IMG/VR virus record: IMGVR_UViG_2617271072_000004
Span: 32,726 to 96,725 of that record
Source: a virus
Lineage: Duplodnaviria > Heunggongvirae > Uroviricota > Caudoviricetes
Length of the DNA: 64,000 nt
Strand: one strand, 5' to 3'
Shown: one piece after another, positions 49,601-59,700 of the stretch
Numbering within the stretch: position 1 is the stretch's first letter
Layout of the letters: each line of letters opens with the position of its first letter
Notes under the pieces: model-generated
What the model saw: only the letters and a program-made list of their open reading frames with translations
Told to the model about the DNA's origin: nothing
The model's database searches: none
Program-made: the position numbers and the translations under genes

Positions 49601-50411
49601 TCACCCTCTGAATCCTGCCGGTATACCCCATTGTTCGTTATCTTTATTTTTGGCTAAAACCGCATTAAGAGCTTCGTTTACCGTCATGCAATGCGGCAAA
49701 TTATCGAAGTTTGATACCCCGCCAATATCAGGAGAACGCTTGTTCTTCAGGTAAGCATATTTCCGCGCTGCCGCCTCTACTTTCTGCTTGAACTCATGTT
49801 TTTGAGCGCGCTTTTTGGATAACCGCAGATTGTCAGCCTTTGCTTTTGCCTCAGCGATCCATGAAGTCAATTTTTTGAGTCTGCTCGTTCCGGCACCGCC
49901 GGAAACTGATCTTTTTGTTTTTTTAACTTGTGACTTCTTATTCTTTATTGCCACGTCATCCTGACAGGGGGAGGGGGTATCATTTTGACATGGGGGTGTG
50001 GATAAAAAATTAAATAAAGCCAATGTCTTAGCGAGAACAGCTTTAACCTTGGTTGCCGCTGAAGAGATCTTTAATTTGCTTTCAATCAGCGCATTTTTTG
50101 GCTTGTTGTGCGAAGGCCAAAAAGGATGGCGTAAACCGGTACAGGTTAGCGCGACGTTCACGGTGATCGCCGATAACAATCTCTACAGACAGAATTCCTT
50201 TGTTTACAGCTTCACGGAATGCACGAACGACGGTTGATTGGCTATAACCAGTTTCTGCCGCGATCAGGCGGTGAGGCTTGTGAATGAAGTATTCACTGGT
50301 TGTTGCCGCGAGATTTGCACATTGCGACAGGATATGCCCGGTGCTACGGGATAGACCGGAGTGTGTTACAAAGCAGGCCAATTCATAGCCAGAAAAAGTA
50401 AAATCGCTCAT
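49601..50411 (-). CDS. repL: lytic-replication protein RepL-like; frame broken at T6 run about 50095
   Basis: Two overlapping ORFs (50082..50447 with HTH-like segment, 49601..50179) directly downstream of kilA; assigned by synteny. Confidence 0.55.
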
Positions 50412-50476: not shown

Positions 50477-51254
50477 TTAGCGCGTTGCCGCGACAGGTAC
50501 CAGCACACCAGCATCAAGCAATCGCTTCATCAGCCACTGCTGACCTTTGCCGGTTATACGAGTCGTGAAAGAAATCCTGCTTCCATTGCTTGTATCGATC
50601 ACGGTTTCTTTAAGGGTGAAATACCCACGGGATATGTATTCTTGTTTGGGGACGTTCCTGCGTTCACCGGTTGCGATCAGAATTCCGTTATCACGCAACC
50701 AGGTGAAGAGATAGTTTTGGCCCAGGCCGAGCACTTTGGCATAGTTGCCGATTAGAACCCCGCTGGCGGTAGCAACGCGTTCGGCGAATTCGACTTTAGG
50801 TGCATCCATAAGCATTTTTTGCTCCAGCCGTTGCTTTTGCTCTGCCAGGTCGGCAGCCAAACGGAGAGCTTCAGGGAGACTCTGCGGAATAGCAGGTTGT
50901 AATCTTCCGGCTCGATAGTCGATAAATGTCTGGTTTACCTTCAGCCGAAACGCGGGAGAAATCCAGCCTGCGTACTCCACAGCGAGCAATTCATGGGCAA
51001 AAGTGCCGCCGCCACGGCCTTCGAACGAAACTATGCAATTCTGCATAGTTTCTTTTTCAAGCTCTTCGATGAGCTGTTTTGCTGACAGCGTTCTTAGCCA
51101 TTGAGCTGGCGCTTTATGGGCACCGAGTCCGCTCGCTCTGTGTAGAGCATTAAGGTTGTAACGGCCAGCGCGGTCGGTCGTAATTTCAACACCACAAATA
51201 ACAGGCAGAGTGGTTGAAGGATCGACATTTTTGATGAAGGTTTGATATATTCAT
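50477..51254 (-). CDS. kilA: KilA (KilA-N/APSES domain plus KilA-C antirepressor-like domain); frame broken at T5 run about 51230
   Basis: Alternate-frame N-terminus ...VICGVEITTDRAGRYNLNALHRASGLGAHKAPAQWLR joins ORF 50477..51046; operator-like site upstream. Confidence 0.65.
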
Positions 51255-51441: not shown

Positions 51442-52487
51442 TTAACCTATTGCTACTGGTTTTAACAAACCAGCATCAAGTAGCTTGCGAGTTAACCACT
51501 GCTGGCCTTTACCCGTTAATTGGGGCGTCAGCCGTATCTGGTAGCCATTTTCATCATCCAGCACCACTTCTTTCACCGTGAAATACCCGGCGTTAATGTA
51601 CTGCTGGCGCGGTACGTTTTTTGCGCGCACCAAAAGCCATGAGAATGCCGTTCTGGCGCAACCATGAGAAAAGGGCGTTTTGCTTAAGTCCAACGACCTT
51701 TGCAAAGTTCCCGATCAGGATTCCATTAGCCACTGATACCCGGTCGGCAAAATCGACTTTAGGGGCTGCGGCCACCAGCTGTTGTTCCAGCTGCAATTTC
51801 TGTTCTGCCAACTCGGCAGCCAGGCGTAGGGCTTCTGGTAATGTTTGGGGGATCGATGGGGTAGGGGAGTTTGCCTGCTGCAATTCTTCCAGTTTGTCGA
51901 TCAGCGAACGGCGGACCGCTTTCGATTCGCGCGCGGCGACTCGCAGGGCTTGTTTGTAGGTCATGGTTATGACAACCATAGGCGTACCGCCACCTGGCGG
52001 CACGGTTGCACTTTTTTGTGTAACCGTCCTCACCTTCTAATTCGTCGAGTATTTTTTCGATGAATTTGTTGTTCCGAACCTCTGGTTCCCCACATAACTT
52101 ACGCGCTTCATTGACCATCTTTAACAGTGTCAGGCTGTCGATTGTGTCTCCGGTGGTGGGGATGACATTCACGGCTGGTGCTGGCGTTGCTGAAGCAACA
52201 GGTGCTGGTTTTTTAACATTCAAATTATTACTGGTCATTCTATGTGCCTCCTTTCTCATTTCTGCTGCCACCGTTGCGTAACGTAGACGTCCTTGTTCAA
52301 TCAAATAATCCCTGATCTCGGCTATCAGTAGCCTGTTGATCACAGCCTTATCTGTTCGGGTATAAAAACGCCTGGTTATCATGAAATAGTTGGCAATTGC
52401 GCCGGGGATCTCCCGTGTCGGTATACAGGCAGTATGCAGGGCGATCGCTTCGGCTATGTCATTACGGGTGACGAGAGGTTTTTTCAT
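51442..52487 (-). CDS. ant1: antirepressor Ant (about 348 aa); split across three frames at T6 runs about 51618 and 52014
   Basis: ORFs 51759..52487, 51593..52033, 51442..51705 are collinear pieces; C-terminal part paralogous to KilA C-domain; start overlaps icd stop (ATGA). Confidence 0.6.
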
Positions 52488-52705: not shown

Positions 52706-53019
52706 AGTTACGGCCTCACAATCAGGTTTAACAACCTGCTACCCGCTGCTAAACAGGTGGCAGGACGTGACGGGGTTAGCAGACTGGCGATTGTGAAACC
52801 AGCAGGCCGAAGCCTCCCCATCACGCCCCACCATAATTTGGGCGTAACGCGGTTTTACGGACACAAAAATACCGCAATATCGGATATCTGCGGCTGTCCG
52901 CACAATCATTCAGGCTGCTAAACCCGGTCGCAGAATTTGCTACGACGGCGGAACTATAAGCCTGAACGATTAAAAGGTCAATATGATGCGAAAAGATAGC
53001 ATTCGTGACTTAAAAATAC

Positions 53020-53036
53020 AAATTTATTAGAGCATT
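53020..53036 (-). promoter_or_regulatory. C1-operator-like site (16/17) at head of immI (c4-icd-ant) region
   Basis: plus strand AAATTTATTAGAGCAtT. Confidence 0.65.
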
Positions 53037-53141
53037 ATCTGCTTAATAAATACACAGTTGGATCTAATAACCTCTTTTTTTTAAAGGCGAAAATATGTAC
53101 CCTAAATGGGTTATAAGGCAGGTGAGGTTATAATGAGAAAA

Positions 53142-53273
53142 CTATTACTATCGTTATTATTTATGGCTGGGACTGTTAATGCAGCATCAAGCGTAAAGGA
53201 GATTTGTACCGATTATACGAAATACCTTTGGCAAGTTTACGCCTTTGCGATCAATGACTATTAATCCATGCGT
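53142..53273 (+). CDS. possible 43-aa secreted peptide (MRKLLLSLLFMAGTVNAASS...); coordinates about +/-2
   Basis: RBS GGTGAGG, signal-peptide-like N-terminus; very AT-rich. Confidence 0.25.
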
Positions 53274-53376
53274 AGGAGTGGATTTATGCTGATTCGTTTG
53301 TTTTTAGTGCTTTCCTTTTTAACATTTAAATGTTTTTGCTGATGAAGTTGACTTTTCGAAGGTAGATTGTAATTCA

Positions 53377-53604
53377 GTGGAAACAAGAAAAGCTCTTATT
53401 GAAGAATATAACGAAATATTATCGTCATATGGAATAACAGTGGTTGATTCTTATAATCAAAAAACTATTCAGAAAGGAATAAATAAACTGGTCTGTTATG
53501 GGGTTTACCAATATTCAGATGGCTCTTCGGAGTATGTTATTTATAAAGCATACCCAAATAGTCTTGGTGAATTAATTAGTGAGTTTAAACCGATTAATGA
53601 GTGA
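53377..53604 (+). CDS. hypothetical small protein (75 aa), AT-rich
   Basis: ORF directly upstream of secreted-protein gene. Confidence 0.45.
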   Translation: METRKALIEEYNEILSSYGITVVDSYNQKTIQKGINKLVCYGVYQYSDGSSEYVIYKAYPNSLGELISEFKPINE

Positions 53605-53611
53605 ATGAAAA

Positions 53612-54391
53612 ATGAAATTATTTAATGTAATAACATTTTGTTGTGCTATTTTTGCTGGAAGCGCGATAGCTGATAATAAATTGCCAGATTGGCTTTCTAC
53701 CTCAAAGAAAGATTATGATTTAGTAAGGGCATTCTATTTGTCTGGATTTGCTTCGAAAGCAATGAACAATCAATTTGGTTATCATTTGCCATCTGAGTTG
53801 GTTAATGATTTTAAAGATAATGAATTTGCTGCTCAGGAAAAATGGAACACAATTCCAATTGTGTATGGTGAAATAAAATCCATAAGAATGGTGAATAATA
53901 AACCAATTGTAGAGTTATTTACTCCAGGGGAAAATGCAACGCCACTAAATTATATCAAATTGAAAATATTGGATTCAAAGCAAGACTCTCTGTTAAAACT
54001 AAAAAAAGGGGATGATATATATGCAGTGTGCTCAGGTGCTAATTTTAGCTTAGTGCCAATTCTGAGCAACTGCACTCCTGCAACAGACGTCATTGATGCT
54101 GCACTCTCTTTTTCTGGTGAATATATGTTCCCTGCTTTTGATTCTTTTTCGCCTACTAAGCAAAACGTCAAATATATATTCACAAATCAAGATCCTGTTC
54201 AGATGATGAATTTTATAGGGTACCTATCCTTAGTCGATACAACGAAGGATAAGAAAAAAATGGATATGGTTCGTAAGTGTACGCCTTGGAAGCCGGAATG
54301 TTCACAACAATTCGTTGATGTAATGGAAGGATTTGATAGCATCATGTATAAATATGAGGGAGAATTTAAAAATTACATAGAATTAAAATAG
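53612..54391 (+). CDS. secreted/periplasmic protein of unknown function (259 aa, cleavable signal peptide), AT-rich
   Basis: MKLFNVITFCCAIFAGSAIA then polar mature region with several Cys; own terminator. Confidence 0.6.
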   Translation: MKLFNVITFCCAIFAGSAIADNKLPDWLSTSKKDYDLVRAFYLSGFASKAMNNQFGYHLPSELVNDFKDNEFAAQEKWNTIPIVYGEIKSIRMVNNKPIVELFTPGENATPLNYIKLKILDSKQDSLLKLKKGDDIYAVCSGANFSLVPILSNCTPATDVIDAALSFSGEYMFPAFDSFSPTKQNVKYIFTNQDPVQMMNFIGYLSLVDTTKDKKKMDMVRKCTPWKPECSQQFVDVMEGFDSIMYKYEGEFKNYIELK

Positions 54392-54421
54392 TATTTGAAA
54401 GGATAGTCAATTTAAGTTTAA

Positions 54422-54450
54422 AAAAAACGCCCATTAAAGGGCGTTTTTAT
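54422..54450 (+). terminator. intrinsic terminator (A-run, CGCCCattaaaGGGCG, T-run)
   Basis: stem-loop flanked by A8 and T5. Confidence 0.6.
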
Positions 54451-54577
54451 TGTTTTACTCAAAACAACCTGATTATGTGATAACCATATCATATCCCTCA
54501 TTCCACCTACACTGATTACCCCCCAGACAACAATATTCCTACTCAATGAACAAATGACTACTCGTAGAATCGGTTAA

Positions 54578-55168
<591 letters not shown>

Positions 55169-55804: not shown

Positions 55805-56743
55805 ATGCTTTTACCCCTTTTCCCGCTACCATCGCGGCCAACTGAATTGATCCAGTTCCGTCAGCCAAATATTGCTGATGCGATGCGTTTCAACTCGATA
55901 ACACCGGAGGAACAAGAACAACAGACAACGGCGTATTTAAAAGCCTTGCTGGCTGAACCCGCGAAACATGATCCCCTGACATGGACGGCGCAGGACCGGA
56001 TTACCGCGTTATGGTGGATATTTACCGGCTCCCGTGAAACACCGGTCGAGACATTCACTTACACCTGTAAACATTGCGGTAAAGAGCATTATTACGATTG
56101 CGATATGAATGCTCTGGCTGAAGATATCCAGGTCCTGGAAGTGGAACCTTTCATTGACGATATTGAGGTGTCTGTAGAGGGAGTACCTTATCAATGGCGT
56201 ATCGTGCCGCTTGATGGTTGGGCAATGGAAATGCTGGAGATGCGCCGTGCAGCATTGCCACCTGAAGACGACGCGGAATTCAAAGAAGCGATCGTTGATT
56301 TGCGTTTTTGGGAATTCGCTTATCAGTGTGAGCTTTATAACGATGTTAGCGGTACTCGTGAAGATCAGGCTGAGCGTCGTTATGAAACGATTAAACGGAT
56401 GGCCATTGATACTGAATTTATGAAGCTGGCGGCACACATCCGACTGGCTCATGAAAAGCTCGAACATGGTTTACCGTGCTACATCGATAAAGGTGAAATG
56501 CGTCTTCGTCTCCCGCCGCATAAATGCCCAAATCAGGATAAAAAGGAGTCCACAGAGGGTGCGTATACCCGTCTGTGGGTGCCTTTCGGGCTACCGACTT
56601 CATTCCACAGGTGGGGATTGAAAAGCTATCAGACCTTAGTGTCCAACCTGGTTTTGTATGGGGGTATACCGATTCAGGACGCTGAAAGGCTTACTGAATC
56701 CTATGCGTTTTTTCCTGTTGGAGAAACTGGAAGAAAAACTTAA
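55805..56743 (+). CDS. hypothetical tail-module protein (312 aa)
   Basis: ORF with RBS AAGGAGCAAGG. Confidence 0.5.
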   Translation: MLLPLFPLPSRPTELIQFRQPNIADAMRFNSITPEEQEQQTTAYLKALLAEPAKHDPLTWTAQDRITALWWIFTGSRETPVETFTYTCKHCGKEHYYDCDMNALAEDIQVLEVEPFIDDIEVSVEGVPYQWRIVPLDGWAMEMLEMRRAALPPEDDAEFKEAIVDLRFWEFAYQCELYNDVSGTREDQAERRYETIKRMAIDTEFMKLAAHIRLAHEKLEHGLPCYIDKGEMRLRLPPHKCPNQDKKESTEGAYTRLWVPFGLPTSFHRWGLKSYQTLVSNLVLYGGIPIQDAERLTESYAFFPVGETGRKT

Positions 56744-56767: not shown

Positions 56768-59700
56768 ATGGAAAGAAAAAAACGCCAACATTGACGATGT
56801 TATAAGGACAGTTGAAACCGCCAGTGCAAAAGAGCTGGAAGAGCTTGCAGGTATCCGGGAAGCTGTTGAAGATTTGAAAGGGGGACGCGTTGCAACTGTT
56901 GATCCTGTCTCTCGCAGTGTGTCGGCATTAAATCGCACAATCGAAAATTCCCGGCCAGACTTTGTGGCCAATGCGCCATCAGTGGACCCTATTGTTGAGG
57001 CAATGAAACGGCTTAATTTAGGGGACGTTTCTCGTGTAGTTCAGGAAGATGTTGCTCAACAGGAACAGCGGGCCAAATCAACCACACCAAAGGGTAAAAA
57101 ACGACGCAGGAAGGCTATACCAGAGGATGTAAAGGCACAACGGACCGAAGCAGCCGAACACGCTCGCGAAATGTTCGGTCAAAAAGGCGGTGCGCAAAAA
57201 AGCCAAAACCAACGCGATGCGCGTGGTCGTTTTTATTGGAAAGTCAGGGAGTAAGGCCGCAGCGGAAGATGCCCGTGCTGAACGAGCAGAAAAGGCCAGG
57301 CGAAAAGAGGATGATGAGCGTCTAAATGCTGAATCAGGTTTATTAAAAAAACTGTCAAAAGTAGCTGAAGGCATAGGTAACCCTTCAGAGACTCGTGCTG
57401 TCGATGCGTTAGGTTATGCCGTTGCAGGTCCATTGTGGGCAGCAGGGAAGGAGCTTGGCGGGATATCAAAAGAAGTTGGCGGATCGCTTAATGGTGCCAG
57501 AAAGTCTATTGCCGATGTGATTCGTGGCAATGACGATAACAGCCGTAGAAAAGGTTTTTTTAGGCGTAAATCGCAAAATAGTGCCGATGTCGTTCAGGTT
57601 AACACCCAAAAACGGACGGTTCAGGAACTTCAGGAGCAGACCAGCGAAATTAAAGAGGGCAATGACAAGATTCTCAGCGCCCTTGATCAGATAGCCAAAA
57701 ACACCGGGAAAAAGAAGGGCGGCTTGCTGTCCAAACTATTTAGCCTGTTAGGGAAGGGGGCCGGTGGCGTCGCGTCGTTGTTAATGGGGCGTGGCATGCT
57801 GAAAAAAGCTGGAGCACTCGCTTTTGGCGCTCTGGGGGCAAAGAAACTTGTAGGAATGCTACGCGGTGGTGGCAAGAAGACTCTCGCTCATGAAGGCGGA
57901 GATTTGGCTGCCCGGGCAGCAGGTAAACTTGGATTAAAGGCAGTTGGTAAAGGGGCGTTACGCGCAATTCCCCTAGTCGGCACAGTGGCTGGAGGTATTT
58001 ATGATGCGGTAACCGGTTGGAATGATACAGAAGCGCAACGTCGAGCGTTTTGGGCTTAAATCAGGACAAGATCCATCATTCCAGCAAAAAGCCGCTTATA
58101 CGTTAGCCAATGTTCTTGATTTGGGGGGACTGGTATCTGGTATTAGCAGTGCTATTGGTGATGTTCTCAAATCACTTGGATTTGAGGATATCGGCAATAT
58201 GTTGCAATCATTTTCGACGGAAAGTATTGCCCAGGCCATTGATAGCGGGGTTACCAACTTAGAAACATATATTTCTAACCTTGGCGACACCATTTCTACC
58301 AAGTTCGATGATTACACAGCAAAGATTGGTGATGCTGTTTCAGCATGGTTTAGCGATACATCTAATAAGTTGCTTGAAAAGCTGGATGCCATAAAAGACT
58401 TCTTTACTGTCGATAACCTGAAACAGGTTTTCAGTGATGCAATTGATAGTGCAATTGACTTCATTAAGAACCCAGGGAAACACATTAAAGAGGCGGCTGG
58501 TAATATTTGGGATGGGGTTAAAAATTTACCCGGTAAAGCATTAGATGCAGCGGTTGATGCCGTTAAAAATACCCCTGCGGCAATGATTGTATCAAAAATA
58601 CCCAATCCGATCGGCGAGGCTAATGCAAAAGAAATCACTCCAGAGTTAAAAGCTCCGGTTAATAGCCACCAGGAGACATCTGATTCTAAAACTGAATCCG
58701 ATGCTAAACAGACTAATATTGCTACCCGCGTGATAAATGCGGCACTGGACACGGCGAAAGATAGCAATAAAACAGTTAAAGAAACTGCCAATCAGATTAT
58801 CAATGCAAATGCCGTAGAAACGGGCAATAGCGCGGTGCGGAAAATTGATTCAGCTATTGGACAAAATAGCTCGTCATCATCGTCGCGTAATACCACCGGC
58901 ACTGGGAATGACATTCAGAAAGCTGCTGATACCTACAATAATGGCAACTTAGATGTAAAAGTCGGAAGCTTGGCGCTGAAGGTAAGGCAAATCTCGATAA
59001 GTTAGCTCCGTATTTTGCTGAACTAGAGAATAAATATGGTCTTCCTGAAGGCACTCTTTACGCGATTGCTGCAACTGAATCTGGTGGTAATCCATACGCA
59101 AAATCCCAAACTGGTGCTCTAGGAATGTTTCAGTTCACGGGCATTGCTCGTGAAGAGACTGGCTTAGCTGAAGGTGAATCGTTTGATCCTGTGAAATCGG
59201 CAGAAGCTGCGGCTCTTCTCATGAGCAAGTATCTGAAGCAAGCCAATGGAGACTTAAACGAGGCCATCACTGCATATAACGCTGGGTTTGGCACTATTAA
59301 TAAGTGGAAAAAAGGCACCGGTGACTTATCGAAGGAAAACCGTGAGTACGCGATCAAGGTCAATACTCATCGTGCTCGCTATTTAGGTGGTGAAATCTAT
59401 ACACCTGGGGCAGGAGCACAGGGTGGGGCGCAATATGGAGTGAGGGGACAACTGCCTGATAACGCCGTTATCGATCAGTCTACTGGTCTGGCGTTTACCC
59501 CTGGTGATAGCCCGTTTGAGAAAGGCGGTCTGGTAGACAAAATCGGCAATGCTGTTGGCGTTAACGATCTGGTCAACAAATTCATGAATGGCCGGGGTAT
59601 GCGTCGGGAAGTCGTTCAGGGAACGCTCGAAGAACGTGCACGAGGGAAGGGGACCGCAACAGCAGCTGGCAATGTGTATGTTGATACTCCGATGCCAGTT

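What the first reader, a model, noticed from the sequence alone, without database searches (positions are those of the whole stretch)
53037..54460. AT-rich islet encoding a secreted protein where I recall the sim (superimmunity) locus
Between the immI operator and the tail genes lies a markedly AT-rich segment encoding a possible 43-aa signal-peptide micro-ORF, a 75-aa protein and a 259-aa protein with a clear Sec signal peptide, ending in a strong terminator. The genes are on the opposite strand from immI and no minus-strand ORF is present. Composition suggests horizontal acquisition; a periplasmic protein here is a good candidate for superinfection exclusion or another envelope-level defence.
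Basis: partly seen in the sequence, partly recalled or inferred. Interest (0 to 1): 0.6.

Follow-up and report, generated by a model that had tools for sequence, protein, structure and literature searches.

The report
Phage P1 sim superinfection-exclusion locus
The AT-rich islet is the long-known sim (superimmunity) locus of bacteriophage P1, whose secreted SimC protein stops a second P1 from delivering its DNA, so the feature is real but ordinary.

Summary
Window 53037-54460 has 32.8% GC against 47.5% for the window, the lowest of any 1.4-kb stretch. It carries three plus-strand ORFs with Sec-type signal peptides and ends in a strong terminator. It is not new: 52900-54600 aligns end to end at 98.4% identity with the annotated simA-simB-simC locus of phage P1, and at up to 99.8% with P1-like plasmids. 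The 259-aa protein differs from P1 SimC, the published superinfection-exclusion protein, by one residue.

Corrections and additions:
- The "75-aa protein" is SimB (111 aa in P1), cut by a +1 A at 53328-53330. None of 141 plasmids or 129 E. coli genomes share this insertion. It is one of many private homopolymer expansions in the window, so it is probably a sequencing error.
- The micro-ORF simA is the truncated 5' end of a 179-215-aa exported protein that is intact in relatives.
- simB-simC is a syntenic pair conserved in a divergent P1-like element.
- SimC is nearly an orphan family with a probable central OB fold.
- The slot 53035-54549 holds alternative exported-protein cassettes in other P1-like elements.

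Novelty: already known. Interest: low.

The parts
53020..53036 (-). C1 repressor operator Op51/Oc4 (AATGCTCTAATAAATTT). Left flank; the conserved immI side ends at 53034.
   Evidence: One mismatch to the C1 operator consensus; 7 matches in the window against 0.06 expected. Corresponds to the annotated Oc4 in P1. Homology with P7 breaks at 53034.
53035..54549 (.). Variable cargo slot of P1-like phage-plasmids, here filled by the low-GC sim cassette.
   Evidence: Homology to P7 stops at 53034 and resumes at 54550. Homology to Ro157c2YLVW stops at 53272 and resumes at 54550. Alternative cassettes are seen. GC data.
53106..53264 (+). simA, 52 aa (43 aa from ATG 53133). It consists of a signal peptide plus about 26 residues and is the truncated 5' remnant of a 179-215-aa exported protein.
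   Evidence: Annotated simA in P1. 86% identical over 50 aa to the N-terminus of the 224-aa ORF of Ro157c2YLVW. Matches positions 1-41 of the 213-position phrog_3933 profile. Full-length homologue lies upstream of simB-simC in L009.
53268..53604 (+). simB. In P1 it is 111 aa (105 aa from the second Met), an exported protein with two conserved Cys. In the window it is frameshifted by an extra A at 53328-53330, leaving the 75-aa GTG ORF 53377-53604.
   Evidence: Alignments to P1 and two plasmids. With one A removed, the translation equals P1 SimB. The insertion is shared by 0 of 141 plasmids and 0 of 129 E. coli genomes. phrog_14329.
53612..54391 (+). simC, 259 aa. Sec signal peptide of 20 aa, then a mature soluble periplasmic protein of 239 aa. 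This is the superinfection-exclusion protein of P1.
   Evidence: One residue different from P1 SimC (K215 for N215). Identical to a 777-member protein cluster. phrog_14355 at E 4e-187. Signal peptide and Cys pairs. OB-fold evidence.
54423..54448 (+). Intrinsic terminator closing the sim operon.
   Evidence: 10-bp stem with 5 G-C pairs and a T run. dG -14.8 kcal/mol, z -4.1.
54552..54570 (+). Late promoter LPsit (right flank), the first conserved feature after the slot, followed by pmgC at 54602-55168.
   Evidence: Transferred from the P1 annotation through the alignment. The -10 TAGAAT lies at 54565-54570 in the sequence.

Best explanation
The islet is the sim (superimmunity) locus of a P1-type phage-plasmid. 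It is a low-GC accessory cassette inserted between the immI control region (c4 RNA, operator Op51) and the late tail operon (LPsit-pmgC-tub-pmgB-sit), and it is transcribed away from immI.

Its active product is SimC. SimC is made as a 259-aa precursor and exported by the Sec pathway. It is probably cleaved after Ala20 and is predicted to be a soluble periplasmic protein with two disulfides. In the periplasm it prevents a superinfecting P1 that has already adsorbed from delivering its DNA into the cytoplasm (superinfection exclusion).

What is shown:
- Identity with P1 sim, shown here.
- The exclusion phenotype and the processing of the protein, shown in the literature for the P1 protein, which differs by one residue.

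What is inferred here:
- The cleavage site, the disulfides and the soluble periplasmic location.
- A three-part build: N-terminal helices, a central OB fold (about residues 62-156) and a C-terminal helical bundle.
- SimB, an 87-aa mature exported protein, is a conserved partner of SimC.
- simA is a decayed remnant of a longer gene.

The molecular target is unknown. My best guess, at about 40%, is that SimC binds a component of the ejected P1 injection apparatus, such as the tail-tube tip or the Sit tape-measure/transglycosylase, and so stops formation of the channel across the periplasm and inner membrane.
For: - Full-length DNA identity: 98.4% to P1 simA-simB-simC and 99.5-99.8% to many P1-like plasmids.
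- SimC differs from P1 SimC at one residue.
- Same position and orientation as in P1: Op51 at 53020-53036, c4 RNA and its a1/b1 targets just upstream, LPsit and pmgC downstream.
- Literature: sim causes superinfection exclusion and its product is processed (titles and citations). [quoted passage not shown]
- Export signals and absence of transmembrane segments.
- The Cys pairs C140/C154 and C223/C230 are conserved in distant relatives.
- The simB-simC pair is syntenic in the same slot of a divergent P1-like element, with SimB 57% and SimC 39% identical.
Against: - The exclusion phenotype and the processing were not tested here, and the original Virology papers could not be read. Details beyond their titles rest on my own knowledge.
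- As I recall, the phenotype was defined with multicopy clones, so its strength from a single-copy prophage is uncertain.
- In this window simB is frameshifted. If that is real and SimB is needed, the locus could be impaired.
- The structural model is of low to moderate confidence (mean pLDDT 62.7, and 35-68 across the OB domain).
- SimC itself scores below the Pfam cutoff (19.1 against 23.5 bits).
- No evidence identifies the target.
Confidence: 0.93

Rival explanations
1. The locus in this replicon is a decaying, non-functional copy. simA is truncated, simB is truly frameshifted, and the G-to-A change at 53608 weakens the ribosome-binding region of simC, so little or no exclusion is produced.
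For: The +1 A at 53328-53330 separates the SimB signal peptide from its mature part. The G-to-A change at 53608 alters GGAAA to GAAAA just upstream of the simC ATG and is shared by only 1 of 140 plasmids. simA is a remnant.
Against: simC is intact and identical to a 777-member cluster. The frameshift is one of many private +1 expansions of A/T runs in the window. At these positions P1 and p12579_1 agree with each other against the window, and several of the changes break ant1 and the essential pmgB. That pattern points to sequencing error rather than biology. simA is truncated in P1 itself, where sim works.
Confidence: 0.08
2. The natural role of the sim proteins is not self-exclusion but another envelope function, such as lysogenic conversion or protection from other phages or colicins. 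On this view, exclusion of P1 is an overexpression effect.
For: The same slot in other P1-like elements carries unrelated exported proteins. P7 has a lipoprotein with a sub-threshold TraT-like hit plus DUF5384. Ro157c2YLVW has a 215-aa protein and a 158-aa protein; the equivalent 158-aa gene in L008 carries PF27224/YfjT. sim is dispensable for lytic growth. My recollection is that the phenotype was defined on multicopy plasmids.
Against: The published phenotype is specific exclusion of P1. No other activity is documented. There is no PADLOC match.
Confidence: 0.12
3. The islet is a novel envelope-level defence cassette that has replaced sim in this P1 relative. This is the novel reading implied by the first reader.
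For: None after testing. Before testing, only the AT-richness and the lack of Pfam or PADLOC assignment pointed this way.
Against: End-to-end 98.4% DNA identity with the annotated P1 sim locus, and a SimC that differs from P1's by one residue.
Confidence: 0.01

Closest known systems
Bacteriophage P1 sim locus (simA, simB, simC; NC_005856 46786-48070; original sequence M34382)
   Same: Same DNA (98.4% over 1701 bp), same gene order, same position between Oc4 and LPsit, same divergent orientation to immI, same terminator. SimC differs at one residue. SimB is identical once the extra A is removed.
   Different: There is a private +1 A in simB. A G-to-A change at 53608 puts a stop in the 5-codon upstream extension used in the P1 GenBank annotation of simC, which supports the 259-aa start at MKLFNV. 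SimA has four substitutions. There is one extra T in the terminator T run.
Other phage superinfection-exclusion proteins that block DNA entry from outside the cytoplasm: Ltp of Streptococcus phage TP-J34, T4 Sp and Imm, P22 SieA, HK97 gp15 (from established knowledge)
   Same: All are prophage- or phage-encoded accessory genes whose envelope-located products act after adsorption to stop genome delivery.
   Different: No sequence relationship was detected (no Pfam, PADLOC or PDB link). SimC is predicted to be a soluble periplasmic protein, whereas Ltp is a lipoprotein and Imm, SieA and gp15 are inner-membrane proteins. Its target is unknown.
Pfam PF12869 'tRNA_anti-like' OB-fold domain of exported bacterial proteins (structure 3f1z)
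   Different: SimC itself is below the gathering score. It carries extra N-terminal helices and a 100-residue C-terminal helical bundle. The function of PF12869 proteins is itself unknown.
Alternative cassettes in the same slot: P7 upf50.5/upf50.0, and the Ro157c2YLVW 215-aa and 158-aa genes
   Same: They occupy the same insertion slot with the same breakpoints (53034/53272 and 54550) and the same orientation. All encode proteins with N-terminal export signals and have G+C below the backbone (40-41%).
   Different: The proteins are unrelated, except that the Ro157c2YLVW 215-aa protein is the full-length form of simA.

Membership tests
P1 Sim (SimC) superinfection-exclusion protein | Sequence identity to P1 SimC over the full length | tested here: met
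   One residue different from P1 SimC over 259 aa (K215 for N215). phrog_14355 at E 3.6e-187. DNA 98.4% identical.
P1 Sim (SimC) superinfection-exclusion protein | Location between the immI operator Oc4/Op51 and the LPsit-pmgC tail operon, transcribed divergently from c4-icd-ant | tested here: met
   Op51 at 53020-53036. C4 RNA at 52753-52838 on the minus strand. pmgC at 54602. P1 annotation.
P1 Sim (SimC) superinfection-exclusion protein | N-terminal cleavable signal peptide (the product is processed) | tested here: met
   In silico only: a basic residue (Lys2) at the N-terminus, a 15-residue hydrophobic core, and A-I-A before the predicted cleavage site after residue 20. Processing itself is known only from the title of Maillou & Dreiseikelmann 1990.
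P1 Sim (SimC) superinfection-exclusion protein | Confers exclusion of superinfecting P1 after adsorption | not testable with these tools
   Needs plating, adsorption and DNA-entry assays. Literature for the P1 protein is cited.
Pfam PF12869 tRNA_anti-like (OB fold) | Score at or above the Pfam gathering threshold | tested here: not met
   SimC scores 19.1 bits against a cutoff of 23.5, E 0.001. However, 4 of 8 aligned relatives match, best E 2e-14.
Pfam PF12869 tRNA_anti-like (OB fold) | Five-stranded OB barrel with a helix between strands 3 and 4 | tested here: inconclusive
Known anti-phage defence systems (PADLOC-DB v2) | Match to any defence-system protein model | tested here: not met
   No hit at E up to 0.1 for SimA, SimB or SimC.

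The most novel reading that the evidence does not exclude
Sim may originally be a three-gene operon of exported proteins: a long SimA of about 180-215 aa, SimB and SimC. P1 and this window would retain only a stump of the first gene. SimB and the OB-fold protein SimC would then act together in the periplasm, capturing the ejected tape-measure/transglycosylase Sit or the incoming DNA end. That would make Sim a soluble periplasmic injection trap, a mode of exclusion not yet described at the molecular level.
Probability: 0.2. Interest if true: 0.4.

Novelty: already known. Interest (0 to 1): 0.1.

Why it matters
The finding adds little. The locus, its phenotype, its low G+C and its variable presence are all published. 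There are three modest by-products:
- The 'putative accessory' gene simA of P1 is a truncated remnant, and simB-simC is the conserved unit.
- SimC probably has an OB-fold core and belongs to an extremely narrow family. This could guide the still missing mechanistic work on how P1 DNA crosses the periplasm.
- The window sequence carries systematic homopolymer errors, so any frameshift-based finding from it should be distrusted.

Tried and rejected
- AlphaFold with only SimC and its 83% relative gave an unusable model (pLDDT 32). The second job, with 8 sequences, reached pLDDT 62.7.
- PDB sequence searches found nothing, either with SimC alone or with the family profile.
- PADLOC gave no match.
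- The afdb50 fold library was not available.
- Two homologue searches of the 5.8-billion-protein set and the exhaustive search of 1.84 billion representatives found only a handful of relatives, so no deep alignment could be built.
- The P1 genome paper (PMC523184) and the P22 sieA paper (PMC176996) are not held, and the original Virology papers on sim are not in the library. Several reviews contained only the citation.
- I considered that simA and simB might be halves of one gene, because plasmid pMCR_SCKP-LL83 annotates a 156-aa 'simB'. I rejected this: that plasmid simply has TAA changed to AAA at the simA stop codon.
- The Rfam scan found no RNA family inside the islet.
- The promoter scan found no more sigma-70-like sites than shuffled sequence gives. 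PsimA is therefore taken only from the P1 annotation.

Full report
**Observation.**
The reported segment is real and stands out.
- Window 53037-54460 has 32.8% G+C against 47.5% for the 64-kb window. Same-size sliding windows have mean 47.5% and sd 2.9%. This is the only stretch below 38% (profile).
- Third-codon-position G+C is 0.21-0.36 in the three ORFs and 0.46-0.51 in the neighbouring genes.
- The plus strand carries ORFs at 53106-53264 (52 aa; 43 aa from the internal ATG), 53377-53604 (75 aa, GTG start) and 53612-54391 (259 aa).
- A 10-bp G+C-rich hairpin with a T run follows at 54423-54448. It folds at -14.8 kcal/mol, z = -4.1 against shuffles.
- The segment begins one base after a C1 operator at 53020-53036. 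This lies just beyond the C4 antisense RNA (52753-52838) and its a1/b1 targets, both on the minus strand.
- Downstream are pmgC, tub, pmgB and sit.

**Identity.**
- Megablast of 52900-54600 against phage records gives 100% coverage at 98.4% identity to phage P1 (NC_005856 46578-48276), and 97.5% to M34382, the original 'sim region' entry.
- The P1 annotation under the match reads PsimA, simA (52 aa), simB (111 aa), simC ('superimmunity'), then LPsit and pmgC.
- Among plasmids, 555 records match the flanks and 136 carry the whole islet, at up to 99.8% identity.
- The window's SimC differs from P1 SimC at one residue, K215 for N215. It is 100% identical to a protein cluster with 777 members.

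**What is known about sim.**
- The literature held here cites Devlin et al. [quoted passage not shown] - PMC2409434 calls simC the superinfection exclusion gene.
- A CRISPRi screen scores simA, simB and simC as non-essential (PMC10695390).
- PMC9603915 lists simC-simB-simA as one of eight highly variable regions of P1-like phage-plasmids and notes that simABC is among the variable regions associated with low G+C.
- I could not read the original Virology papers. Anything beyond their titles, such as SecA dependence, normal adsorption or the use of multicopy clones, is my recollection.

(a) *The 75-aa ORF is a fragment of simB.*
- Relative to P1 and two plasmids, the window has one extra A at 53328-53330 (AAA for AA).
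- As a result the ORF starting at ATG 53268 (MRRSGFMLIRLFLVLSFLTF...) stops after 24 codons, and the rest is readable only from a GTG at 53377.
- Removing one A restores a protein identical to P1 SimB.
- None of 141 plasmids and none of 129 complete E. coli genomes with this segment share the insertion.
- Against its closest complete relative p12579_1, the window shows 55 single-base indels, most of them +1 extensions of A or T runs.
- In the 7.7 kb that can be compared three ways, P1 and p12579_1 agree with each other against the window at every such run.
- Several of these changes split ant1 and alter the end of the essential pmgB.
- The simplest reading is systematic homopolymer sequencing error, not biology.

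(b) *A G-to-A change at 53608 places a stop codon in the five-codon extension (MSEWK) with which GenBank starts P1 simC.* One of 140 plasmids shares it. This supports the 259-aa start at MKLFNV, the start used for this gene in the p12579_1 record (780 bp).

(c) *simA is a remnant.*
- Its first 50 residues are 86% identical to the N-terminus of a 215/224-aa exported protein of phage Ro157c2YLVW.
- It matches only positions 1-41 of the 213-position phrog_3933 profile.
- DNA homology with Ro157c2YLVW runs through simA to 53272 and then breaks.

**Evolutionary context.**
- Homology with P7 breaks at 53034 and resumes at 54550. With Ro157c2YLVW it resumes at the same point. So 53035-54549 is a replaceable slot.
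- P7 fills it with a lipoprotein (upf50.5, with a sub-threshold TraT-like hit) and a DUF5384 protein, both carrying signal peptides.
- Ro157c2YLVW fills it with the long SimA homologue and a 158-aa exported protein.
- In PLSDB the three cassettes occur in about 136, 166 and 81 plasmids respectively, counted at 80% coverage or more.
- A metagenomic contig with an 83% SimC variant carries simB-simC followed by the long simA homologue and a gene carrying PF27224/YfjT (L008).
- A divergent P1-like contig (L009) has, in the same slot, long simA (179 aa, 59% identical to the Ro157c2YLVW protein), then simB (57%), then simC (39%).
- So simB-simC is a conserved syntenic pair, and the P1 arrangement looks like an L009-type operon with most of simA deleted.

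**SimC as a protein.**
- The precursor has a typical Sec signal peptide (MKLFNVITFCCAIFAGSAIA|DN), no lipobox and no transmembrane-grade segment in the mature part.
- It has four mature cysteines (140, 154, 223, 230). These align as conserved pairs in distant relatives, which fits a disulfide-bonded periplasmic protein.
- The family is tiny. The exhaustive search of 1.84 billion representatives gave only 15 hits at E up to 0.001, with one full-length distant homologue.
- Residues 62-154 give a sub-threshold Pfam hit to PF12869 (tRNA_anti-like OB fold; E 0.001, 19.1 bits against a 23.5 cutoff). Four of eight aligned relatives hit the same family, best E 2e-14.
- An AlphaFold model from the 8-sequence alignment is of modest quality (pLDDT 62.7, pTM 0.50). 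It shows N-terminal helices, a beta1-3/alpha/beta4-5 unit and a better-predicted C-terminal helical bundle.
- No PDB sequence match and no PADLOC match were found.

**Mechanism.**
- *Shown in the literature for the P1 protein, which differs from this one by a single residue:* sim confers exclusion of superinfecting P1, and its product is processed.
- *Inferred here:* Sec export, cleavage after Ala20, a soluble disulfide-bonded periplasmic location, and action together with exported SimB.
- *Guess:* the OB-fold and helical protein binds part of the ejected injection machinery (tail-tube tip or Sit) or the conduit for DNA, and so blocks transfer across the periplasm and inner membrane.

**Rival readings:**
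- The copy in this replicon is decayed. This is unlikely, because the frameshift looks artefactual.
- The natural role of the locus is another envelope function and exclusion is an overexpression effect. This cannot be excluded here.
- The islet is a novel cassette. This is refuted.

**Verdict.**
Interest is low. The small new points are the remnant nature of simA, the conserved simB-simC pair, the probable OB fold of SimC, and the warning about homopolymer errors in this window.

Noticed in passing
whole window; e.g. 50094-50099, 51228-51232, 51617-51622, 52012-52017, 53328-53330, 54444-54448, 56581-56583, 56708-56713, 56776-56782, 57230-57234: The window carries many private single-base indels, mostly +1 extensions of A or T runs. 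There are 55 indels against plasmid p12579_1. In the 7.7 kb that is also covered by P1, both references agree against the window. This looks like systematic homopolymer sequencing or assembly error, so any frameshifted or split ORF in this window should be distrusted.
   Followed up: yes
window 51442-52487 (minus strand): The antirepressor gene ant1 (347 aa in P1) appears as three overlapping ORF pieces of 242, 146 and 87 aa. The cause is +1 T insertions at about 51622 and 52017, together with a short divergent patch at 51981-52030 relative to P1.
   Followed up: partly
window 55805-56743: pmgB reads as 312 aa instead of 293 aa, because of a 1-base deletion at about 56583 and a +1 T at about 56713. 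pmgB is essential in P1 (PMC10695390), which again suggests sequence error rather than a defective phage.
   Followed up: partly
L002 (phage P7) 3919-4983: In P7 the same slot holds the lipoprotein upf50.5 and a DUF5384 protein, both exported. upf50.5 has a sub-threshold similarity to the TraT surface-exclusion/complement-resistance protein (PF05818, E 7e-5, 23 bits against a cutoff of 31). This could be an alternative exclusion cassette.
   Followed up: no
L003 (Ro157c2YLVW) 1707-2909; L008 1921-3109; L009 4059-4598: A 179-215-aa exported protein, the full-length form of simA, occurs in this slot in other P1-like elements. It has a faint PTP-like phytase hit. In two of the three loci (Ro157c2YLVW and L008) it is paired with a 158-aa exported protein, which in L008 carries PF27224/YfjT. 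Its function is unknown.
   Followed up: partly
window 52865-52946 (minus strand): There is a sub-threshold Rfam match to the isrK Hfq-binding sRNA (43.7 bits against a gathering score of 50). It overlaps the c4 a1/b1 target region and is probably the known relatedness of isrK to the c4 leader region.
   Followed up: no
window 53612-54391 and about 53264-53268: PMC2409434 reports predicted ArgR boxes inside P1 simC and at the simA/simB junction. They are untested, and I did not examine them in the window.
   Followed up: no
L004 (pMCR_SCKP-LL83) 507-1004: In this mcr-1 plasmid the simA stop codon TAA is changed to AAA. This fuses simA and simB in frame into a 165-aa ORF, annotated from an internal start as 156 aa. 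The result would be a protein with two consecutive signal-peptide-like segments.
   Followed up: partly
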